From positions 7,440,001 to 7,504,000 of the forward strand of contig OX597817.1 of NCBI GenBank assembly GCA_951406725.2: a stretch of DNA of 64,000 nucleotides. Direction: 5' to 3'. The position numbers and the translations under genes are program-made. Source of the DNA: Octopus vulgaris. Lineage: Eukaryota. The notes under the pieces are model-generated. The model saw only the letters and a program-made list of their open reading frames with translations. It ran no database searches and was not told the DNA's origin. This document shows, piece after piece, positions 32,807 to 33,065 of the stretch; the stretch's first letter is position 1; the number at the start of each line of letters is the position of its first letter.

Positions 32807-33065
32807 CTTTATTTTAAGCAGCAGAAAATTCAACAAAATATGTTACTCTGAGTTTCTCGTTGCCGTTCATCAGACAGTTTTGCTAGAATGGAACTGATAT
32901 ATCAATTCCATTCTAGCAAAAACTGTCTGATGAACGGCAACGAGAAACTCAGAGTAACAGATTTTGTTGAATTTTCTGCTGCTTAAAATAAAGCATATTA
33001 CTCTACCACTGGTATTTGAGTACTCTTTTTTCCACCTTGTTTCACATTTATGTGTTTACTCCGTA
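32807..33065 (+). mobile_element. Palindromic non-autonomous PLE-like element with two opposed HHR motifs and a 3' tail
   Basis: Near-perfect palindrome 32807-32993 centred on tgatatatca (32895-32904). HHR CTGT-CTGATGA-ACGGCAACGA-GAAA-CTCAGAG-TA-ACAG at 32923-32960(+), mirror at 32840-32877(-). Unpaired tail runs to ~33065, with (TA)n on both sides. Confidence 0.78.

What the first reader, a model, noticed from the sequence alone, without database searches (positions are those of the whole stretch)
32807..33065. Palindromic mini-PLE: two back-to-back canonical hammerheads plus an unpaired tail in (TA)n
Seen: a ~187-bp near-perfect palindrome with essentially no loop. Each arm holds CTGATGA-ACGGCAACGA-GAAA-CTCAGAG-TA (GNRA-capped stem II, GUA site). 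A ~70-nt tail follows on one side only. This is a miniature of the 4.9-kb PLE architecture with no coding sequence. Inference: an extremely truncated PLE insertion (inversion inside the pLTR) or a non-autonomous fold-back element. It could extrude a cruciform, and transcripts would compete between a long hairpin and HHR folding.
Basis: partly seen in the sequence, partly recalled or inferred. Interest (0 to 1): 0.7.

Follow-up and report, generated by a model that had tools for sequence, protein, structure and literature searches.

The report
Twin-primed mini-palindromes of a Penelope element
This 257-base mirror-image insert is one of many hundreds of very short copies of a young Penelope-type jumping gene, likely made when both cut ends of the target DNA copy the start of the element's RNA from two fixed points and the two copies then stick together, which offers a testable answer to how these elements build their odd inverted ends.

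Summary
The palindrome (32807-32993, 187 bp, 91 of 94 columns identical) and the one-sided 70-nt tail are real. It is one of at least 748 mini-palindromes in this genome, 95-100% identical to the pLTR of a Hydra-clade Penelope-like element with an intact 711-codon RT-GIY-YIG ORF, not of the 5-kb PLE in the window. Inverted pLTR plus tail, and opposite-strand hammerhead pairs, are published; the hammerhead is Hydra-type with only a 2-bp stem II. The copies add mechanism: one arm ends at one fixed site and the other 70 nt further on (36 of 40 minis, 16 of 16 long copies); junction mismatches segregate like heteroduplexes of two cDNAs; some arms do not overlap. This favours twin priming over the published self-priming model. 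Arm starts pile up at one point just 5' of the ribozyme (32 of 100 within 7 nt, none in the 18 nt upstream), likely the RNA's 5' end. Varied centres argue against a self-propagating element; a read-through transcript is predicted to bury the ribozyme. This scan reached similar readings on other genomes. Verdict: new member of a known kind, with a useful, untested mechanistic clue.

The parts
32760..32806 (.). (TA)n target, left side
   Evidence: TRF; sequence
32807..32899 (-). Short arm: inverted copy of the pLTR end, outer end at fixed site A (q93, AAATAAAG|TA; q1 = window 32901)
32826..32888 (-). Hammerhead motif of the short arm (stem I damaged by one substitution and one missing A); predicted cut between 32844 and 32843
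   Evidence: cleavage untested
32891..32908 (.). Junction: 18-nt imperfect palindrome native to one pLTR variant; the + strand reads as the short-arm cDNA through the whole of it
   Evidence: matches the reverse complement of genomic copy L007 letter for letter; 5 such copies versus 1 in the other orientation
32900..32993 (+). Long arm, palindromic part (pLTR end)
32910..32910 (+). q10: family-wide pile-up of arm 5' ends, inferred RNA 5' end (CCA+1TTCT; Inr-like by recalled consensus). This copy itself runs past it.
   Evidence: inference
32911..32974 (+). Hammerhead motif, type I, Hydra-type: long stem I, CUGAUGA, 2-bp stem II with GCAA loop, GAAA, palindromic stem III, GUA; predicted cut after 32956
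   Evidence: cleavage untested
32994..33063 (+). 70-nt tail, between end site A (q93) and end site B (q163-166); in the parent it is 5' leader running on to the ORF (ATG at q232)
32999..33022 (+). Small hairpin (5 bp, 3-nt bulge, 4 bp) starting 6 nt after site A; the parent has a second hairpin of the same build after site B, which the insert lacks
   Evidence: stems kept while loop and bulge vary in sister copies L026, L037, L196
33066..33296 (.). (TA)n target, right side
   Evidence: TRF

Best explanation
The insert is a 5'-truncated, inverted insertion of a young Hydra-clade Penelope-like retrotransposon into (TA)n, likely made by twin priming: both cut ends of the target would prime reverse transcription on the element's RNA, one at site A (q93) and one at site B (q164-166), and the two cDNAs would anneal at their 3' ends through a short self-complementary stretch and fill each other in. 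The tail is the RNA between the two start sites. Shown: identity to the parent pLTR, intact parent ORFs, the one-A-one-B rule, junction sequences, the pile-up of 5' ends at q10-14. Inferred: that A and B are RT start sites (by analogy to the anole PLE in vitro), that the small hairpin behind each site positions RT, that both cDNAs usually come from one RNA, that q10 is the capped 5' end so that most minis are run-off copies of the 5' leader, and that minis are dead ends because they lack the second hairpin. This particular copy belongs to a minority joined about 10 nt upstream of q10, so its template was longer than the usual one.
For: Parent: L035 is pLTR-tail-ORF-pLTR-tail in (TA)n with a 711-codon ORF; 45 of 150 scored ORF matches lie in a 727-aa open frame (counted from the listing); 101 tail-to-ORF junctions. 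Abundance: 748 minis by one exact pattern, 3,992 exact hammerhead cores. End rule: 36 of the first 40 minis on contig C1 have one arm at q93 and one at q163-168, after reading five mutated copies by eye; none has two tails; 16 of 16 long inverted copies obey it; tail on one side only in 46 of 49 further minis. Two cDNAs: of the first 50 of 496 CTAG-centred sites 24 are G..C, 26 mixed, 0 T..A (counted from the listing), as expected if two strands annealed with two mismatches; oriented by the tail, 9 keep the short-arm strand and 4 the long-arm strand, and for this copy's centre type 5 versus 1; keeping short-arm letters that the long arm lacks cannot come from fold-back of the tail-bearing cDNA. 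In L217, L220 and L233 the arms do not overlap at all. Fixed 5' end: of the first 100 cores on C1, 32 start at q8-14, 14 at q15-27, 0 at q-10 to q7, 5 at q-85 to q-11, 49 run further; solo copies start at q8-11 straight after (TA)n (53 on one strand); sister-family copies L070 and L037, which lack the CTAG palindrome, also start at the q10 equivalent after a G. In vitro, an anole PLE cuts and extends both strands and starts RT at two sites that bound the tail (PMC11167929).
Against: No RNA 5'-end data exist here. The cap signature is weak: the base after a cDNA end is C in 12 (q10), 4 of 6 (q9) and 7 of 8 (q8) arms, but at q10 7 are T and 26 are A (mostly a genomic variant missing from my reference list), and most C's could be borrowed from the partner arm; among solo copies only 3 listed sites show an extra G. 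Exceptions to the end rule: L221 has two q93 ends; L046, L057, L069 end elsewhere and L070 is a sister family; L159 and L162 carry tail sequence on both arms and L139 a shortened one. Both arms share subfamily alleles (q85: 20 both T, 2 discordant, of 81 minis), which fits one RNA but equally fits fold-back or later gene conversion. Local TA-like complementarity at both sites differs from the 'no homology' reported in vitro. Samples are the first listed sites, mostly from contig C1, not random draws.
Confidence: 0.75

Rival explanations
1. Self-priming or fold-back: one cDNA (or an antisense RNA) folds back at a short native palindrome, copies itself, and the endonuclease trims one end to leave the tail (models in PMC3846280 and PMC8557442).
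For: Junctions sit in native short palindromes; arms share alleles; the T..C and G..C centre classes are compatible with fold-back of the long cDNA.
Against: Short-arm-retained centres are the commoner mixed class (9 vs 4; 5 vs 1); non-overlapping arms exist; long copies have arms of unrelated lengths; solo copies start at the same point without any inversion.
Confidence: 0.12
2. Twin priming is right, but the q10-14 pile-up is not a transcription start: it reflects RT stalling or release at the base of the long stem I, microhomology at CTAG, or a splice-related RNA end (TTCCATTCTAG|C at q6-17 looks like a 3' splice site, and D. virilis Penelope has its intron end at the 5' end of helix I).
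For: Extended stem I begins at q11; 496 sites use the CTAG centre; acceptor-like sequence and a branch-like TTGAT/TTAAT 19 nt upstream are in the sequence; intron position from PMC4209133.
Against: RT meets the 3' side of stem I first, not q10; longer palindromes just upstream are used far less (18 sites of this copy's type); sister copies without CTAG start at the same place; 0 of 30 examined (of 89) copies with another base before q15 share an upstream exon.
Confidence: 0.3
3. A non-autonomous palindromic element (retrozyme-like or MITE) that is copied as a unit.
For: High copy number and recurring centre types; terminal inverted repeats in (TA)n resemble a MITE superficially.
Against: 26 centre strings in 40 copies; same classes in both orientations and both q85 backgrounds; continuous size series up to full-length ORF copies with the same two ends; asymmetric ends; no tandem monomers in this copy.
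Confidence: 0.05
4. Assembly or long-read fold-back artefact.
For: No public contig spans this copy's centre; raw long reads were not available.
Against: Arms differ at 3 places, one of which is explained by a genomic variant; hundreds of sites with fixed, asymmetric ends; short-read contigs of other runs show both TA-joined ends and, in one contig, a CTAG fold-back junction (run X13).
Confidence: 0.02

Closest known systems
Hydra clade of C-terminal EN+ PLEs (Craig et al. 2021, PMC8557442; passages, section 11 and part 2 of the supplement read)
   Same: RWK and DKT motifs, linker Cys motif, CxxC and CxH around the conserved E and N, (TA)n target, type-I hammerhead with palindromic stem III (Hydra-2_aMil has the same stem I and stem III words); an inverted 5'-truncated copy is noted for Penelope-13_HM.
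   Different: Unit is 3.34 kb (published ones mostly <3 kb); second Cys of the CxCx5C linker is Phe; stem II only 2 bp; hammerhead sequence differs from the listed Hydra-1_oBim; tail 70 nt rather than 30-40.
EN+ PLE insertions with inverted 5'-truncated pLTR and one-sided tail (Pen2a_Av, PMC3846280; D. virilis Penelope, PMC2377424; passages read)
   Same: Head-to-head inverted pLTR, palindrome at the junction, tail at one end only.
   Different: Here about half of the insertions are reduced to the pLTR end alone (34 of 65 on the first 70 Mb of C1, my classification); those authors proposed self-priming on an antisense template or EN resolution, which the junction data disfavour.
Poseidon PLE of Anolis in vitro (Frangieh et al. 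2024, PMC11167929; parts 1-2 of 4 read)
   Same: Both strands cut and extended; two internal RT start sites bound the tail; AT-rich target; sequence downstream of the start sites needed.
   Different: They saw no pairing of one site per strand and did not address how the two products are joined; here each insertion pairs site A with site B.
Opposite-strand dual minimal hammerheads of truncated PLEs (Cervera and De la Pena 2014, PMC4209133; parts 1-2 of 4 read)
   Same: Two motifs 100-700 bp apart on opposite strands; palindromic helix III suited to dimers; low monomer activity.
   Different: They reported a conserved G10.1-C11.1 pair and large helix II; here 10.1/11.1 is A with A, G, C or U by subfamily.
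L1 twin priming (seen only as described in PMC11702581, passages; original paper not held)
   Same: Second target end primes internally on the RNA; microhomology joins the two cDNAs; an extra G marks full-length 5' ends.
   Different: In L1 the second site is variable and arms barely overlap; here both sites are fixed and the arms usually copy the same 80-90 nt, giving a palindrome; it is the rule rather than a minority.
Metazoan non-LTR retrozymes (bioRxiv 10.64898/2026.07.22.740005, part 1 of 5 read)
   Same: Non-coding, hammerhead-bearing, PLE-derived.
   Different: Retrozymes are tandem same-strand monomers that propagate; this insert is a head-to-head pair remade at each insertion.

Membership tests
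EN+ Penelope-like element (parent) | Single ORF with RT and C-terminal GIY-YIG endonuclease | tested here: met
   711-codon ORF with FDIIDFYPS, MGAYDG, YRDDG and GVVY...YTG; 1,728 relatives at E<=1e-10; 24% identity to a standard PLE RT in the window. Pfam and PDB sequence searches gave nothing relevant, so the domain calls rest on motifs and relatives.
EN+ Penelope-like element (parent) | Partial-tandem pLTRs, inverted 5'-truncated copy, one-sided tail | tested here: met
   L035, L033, L256-L258
Hydra clade | RWK motif and DKT in place of DKG | tested here: met
   RWK at 53, DKT at 129; 89 and 114 of 120 relatives
Hydra clade | CxCx5C linker | tested here: inconclusive
   C-N-F-x5-C here; relatives have C-N-C
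Hydra clade | No CCHH motif; CxxC and CxH flank the conserved E and N | tested here: met
   CKLCLLEK and LNQRSELMNLCRH; no Cys pair inside the GIY-YIG core
Hydra clade | Insertion into (TA)n | tested here: met
   letters after both ends
Hydra clade | Placement in an RT phylogeny with named Hydra members | not tested
Type-I hammerhead ribozyme | Conserved core CUGAnGA / GAAA / UH with stems I-III | tested here: met
Type-I hammerhead ribozyme | Stable stem II closed by a 10.1-11.1 pair | tested here: not met
   A.A plus 2 bp; position 11.1 varies among subfamilies; active monomer fold has probability about 1e-4; Rfam no hit
Type-I hammerhead ribozyme | Self-cleavage | not testable with these tools
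   needs an assay; none of the 12 partner arms truncated inside the insert begins at the predicted cut
Non-LTR retrozyme | Two or more tandem same-strand monomers with hammerheads | tested here: not met
   one motif per strand, head to head
MITE (DNA transposon derivative) | Symmetric TIRs at both ends, uniform internal structure, link to a transposase | tested here: not met
   asymmetric ends, variable centres, link to an RT ORF

The most novel reading that the evidence does not exclude
These minis are the PLE counterpart of strong-stop DNA captured in the genome: the RT dimer binds twin hairpins in the 5' leader of its capped mRNA, primes from both target nicks at two fixed sites, runs off the cap, and the two cDNAs anneal and complete each other, so no separate second-strand step is needed. 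Long copies then need read-through, circular or jumped templates, and twin priming is the normal PLE integration route.
Probability: 0.45. Interest if true: 0.65.

Novelty: new member of a known kind. Interest (0 to 1): 0.4.

Why it matters
How Penelope-like elements make their inverted ends and one-sided tails, and how they finish the second strand, is stated as open in the papers read. This young family supplies hundreds of near-identical natural products, exact predicted RT start sites, a predicted RNA 5' end and intact ORFs, so the twin-priming model can be tested directly. The minis also seed the genome with hundreds of 150-200-bp perfect hairpins, possible sources of dsRNA and of local instability (not tested).

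Tried and rejected
Rfam: no gathering hit in the window; at E<=10 only generic hairpin (miRNA-like) models, rejected as chance. Pfam and PDB sequence searches of the ORF or its alignment found no relevant family. No RNA holder listed: 19 runs hold the stretch, none on record as RNA, and all laid were contigs, so expression and 5' ends could not be read. My first idea that the G/A mismatch near the centre meant two different pLTR templates was dropped: one genomic variant explains it. A recurring GACATATC centre turned out to be a genomic variant. A spliced first exon at the acceptor-like site was sought and not found in 30 of 89 candidate loci. The sister-family search gave only 2 sites. BLAST ends 'q98' are over-extension into TA; the true end is q93. 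Literature: searches 'twin priming'+'Penelope' (3 papers, listings only, none on PLE mechanism), and searches found no paper proposing this for PLEs; subscription journals are not covered. The original L1 twin-priming paper was not held. No structure or complex prediction was run: not needed for the question.

Full report
Numbering: q1 = window 32901 on the + strand, which is the sense strand of the parent element.

Observation. The sequence shows a 187-bp palindrome at 32807-32993 whose arms differ by two mismatches and one indel, far beyond chance (z -27.7), then a 70-nt tail on the right only, all inside (TA)n. Each strand has one hammerhead core. The motif has a long stem I, a 2-bp stem II flanked by A and A, a self-complementary stem III and a GUA site. 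Rfam does not score it, but hammerheads listed for Hydra-clade PLEs share its stem I and III words and often have unpaired bases flanking stem II (PMC8557442 supplement). The active monomer fold is predicted to be rare (about 1e-4), the stem III self-duplex is -7.4 kcal/mol, and in a transcript through the whole insert the core is paired with probability about 0.999. So read-through RNA is predicted to be a plain hairpin.

Parent. The right arm plus tail hits copies at 95-100% identity across the genome (196 candidates, 40 scored). Larger stretches (9 fetched) show that the tail continues into a 711-codon ORF (ATG at q232) and that the unit repeats after 3,337 bp. The protein has RT motifs, a C-terminal GIY-YIG-like domain, and the RWK, DKT, CxxC and CxH marks of the Hydra clade; the linker has Phe for one Cys. 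Of 150 scored ORF matches 45 lie in a 727-aa open frame, so the family is young and likely active. The 5-kb inverted PLE at about 17810-22860 is another family.

Family census. One exact pattern finds 748 mini-palindromes; this is a lower bound, since a subfamily with a CCGA core escapes it. There are 3,992 exact cores and 101 tail-to-ORF junctions. The first 100 cores on contig C1 fall into 65 insertions; by my reading, 34 of them are confined to the pLTR end. The exact centre type of this copy occurs at 18 sites.

Rule of ends. In the first 40 listed minis one arm ends at q93 and the other at q163-168 in 36; five of these needed reading by eye because of mutations, three others end elsewhere and one is a sister family. 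All 16 long inverted insertions examined follow the same rule, and 46 of 49 further minis (of 99 listed) have the tail on one side only. One copy has two q93 ends (L221). In vitro, an anole PLE extends both cut strands and starts RT at two sites that bound the tail (PMC11167929), so I read q93 and q164-166 as RT start sites. Each is followed within 6-8 nt by a hairpin of the same build (5 bp, 3-nt bulge, 3-4 bp); I took this lead from scan note e1-8668527 and confirmed it by folding, with stems kept in three sister copies. Inserts lack the second hairpin, so they are predicted dead ends.

Two cDNAs, not one fold-back. Junctions lie in short native palindromes. At the commonest one (496 sites) two flanking mismatches give four possible outcomes; the first 50 sites show 24 fully trimmed, 26 carrying one whole strand's letters and none carrying the mixed fourth type. 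Oriented by the tail, 9 keep the short-arm strand and 4 the long-arm strand; for this copy's 18-nt centre 5 keep the short-arm strand and 1 the long. The window copy reads exactly as the short-arm cDNA of variant L007 through the centre. A tail-bearing cDNA folding back cannot supply short-arm-only letters, and a short cDNA folding back cannot supply the tail. Three inserts have arms that do not overlap. This disfavours the self-priming model of PMC3846280 and the EN-resolution idea of PMC8557442. Arms share the q85 allele in 79 of 81 minis, which fits one RNA template but does not by itself discriminate.

Fixed 5' boundary. Of 100 cores, 32 arms start at q8-14, 14 at q15-27, none at q-10 to q7, 5 at q-85 to q-11 and 49 further upstream. 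Junctions reaching q10-11 are common (217 rows; 54 and 23 sites of two types in the first 100 rows), solo copies start there directly after (TA)n (53 on one strand), and two of three sister-family junctions do too without the CTAG palindrome. The site reads CCA+1TTCT, an initiator-like word by a consensus I recall. A non-genomic C after the cDNA end, as a cap would give (extra G in L1, PMC11702581), is frequent but confounded by microhomology. I put the capped-end reading at about 0.6. The rival, an acceptor-like site at q16/17 in the position of the D. virilis intron end (promoter and intron in PMC2377424), found no spliced copies in 30 of 89 candidates. The window copy joined upstream of q10, so its template was longer.

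Comparison and novelty. Inverted pLTR, one-sided tail, (TA)n targeting and opposite-strand hammerhead pairs are all in print. My searches found no paper proposing twin priming from two fixed sites for PLEs, within an open-access library only; I saw only part 2 of 59 of the Craig supplement and no other supplements. Earlier scan notes on other genomes reached the same reading; they are unchecked and not counted as support. The finding is a new member of a known kind whose population gives a sharp, testable model. Interest 0.4.

Noticed in passing
window 17810-22860: A second, unrelated PLE: about 1-kb inverted terminal repeats in (TA)n, a short tail on the left arm only, and a 613-codon RT-GIY-YIG frame on the - strand (21885-20047) with a CxxxxCxxC linker and Cys pair in the EN core, Neptune-like by recalled motifs.
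   Followed up: partly
window 61076: Isolated hammerhead-like motif (CTGATGA ... GAAA ... GTA with 4-bp stem I), not related to the family studied.
   Followed up: no
L003/L037 (G000:C6:17947564-17947900); L089: Copies in which the ORF start is joined back to the pLTR just upstream of the hammerhead, giving a roughly 250-nt tandem unit: a possible newborn retrozyme-like derivative.
   Followed up: no
L139, L133, L144, L109 and others: Older subfamilies carry CCGAUGA or CCGACGA cores and G, C or U at position 11.1, so the hammerhead core drifts within an actively spreading family.
   Followed up: partly
L070/L195, L196, L026, L037:4664-4827: Diverged sister family (about 78-80% identical) with the same mini-palindrome layout, same 5' start and a conserved tail hairpin.
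   Followed up: partly
L035:5337, runs X6 and X13: Contigs of two studies join the same foreign sequence to the element at q15-17, next to the acceptor-like site; could be a host exon spliced on or simply one genomic copy.
   Followed up: no
window 12511-13007 and 44243-44793: Tandem arrays (115-bp and 184-bp units) of a common dispersed repeat, with many partial copies in the window.
   Followed up: no
L159 (G000:C12:50555460-50555970): An ORF-bearing arm whose 5' end is joined near the inferred RNA start to an inverted mini arm: a full-length copy ending at the leader.
   Followed up: partly
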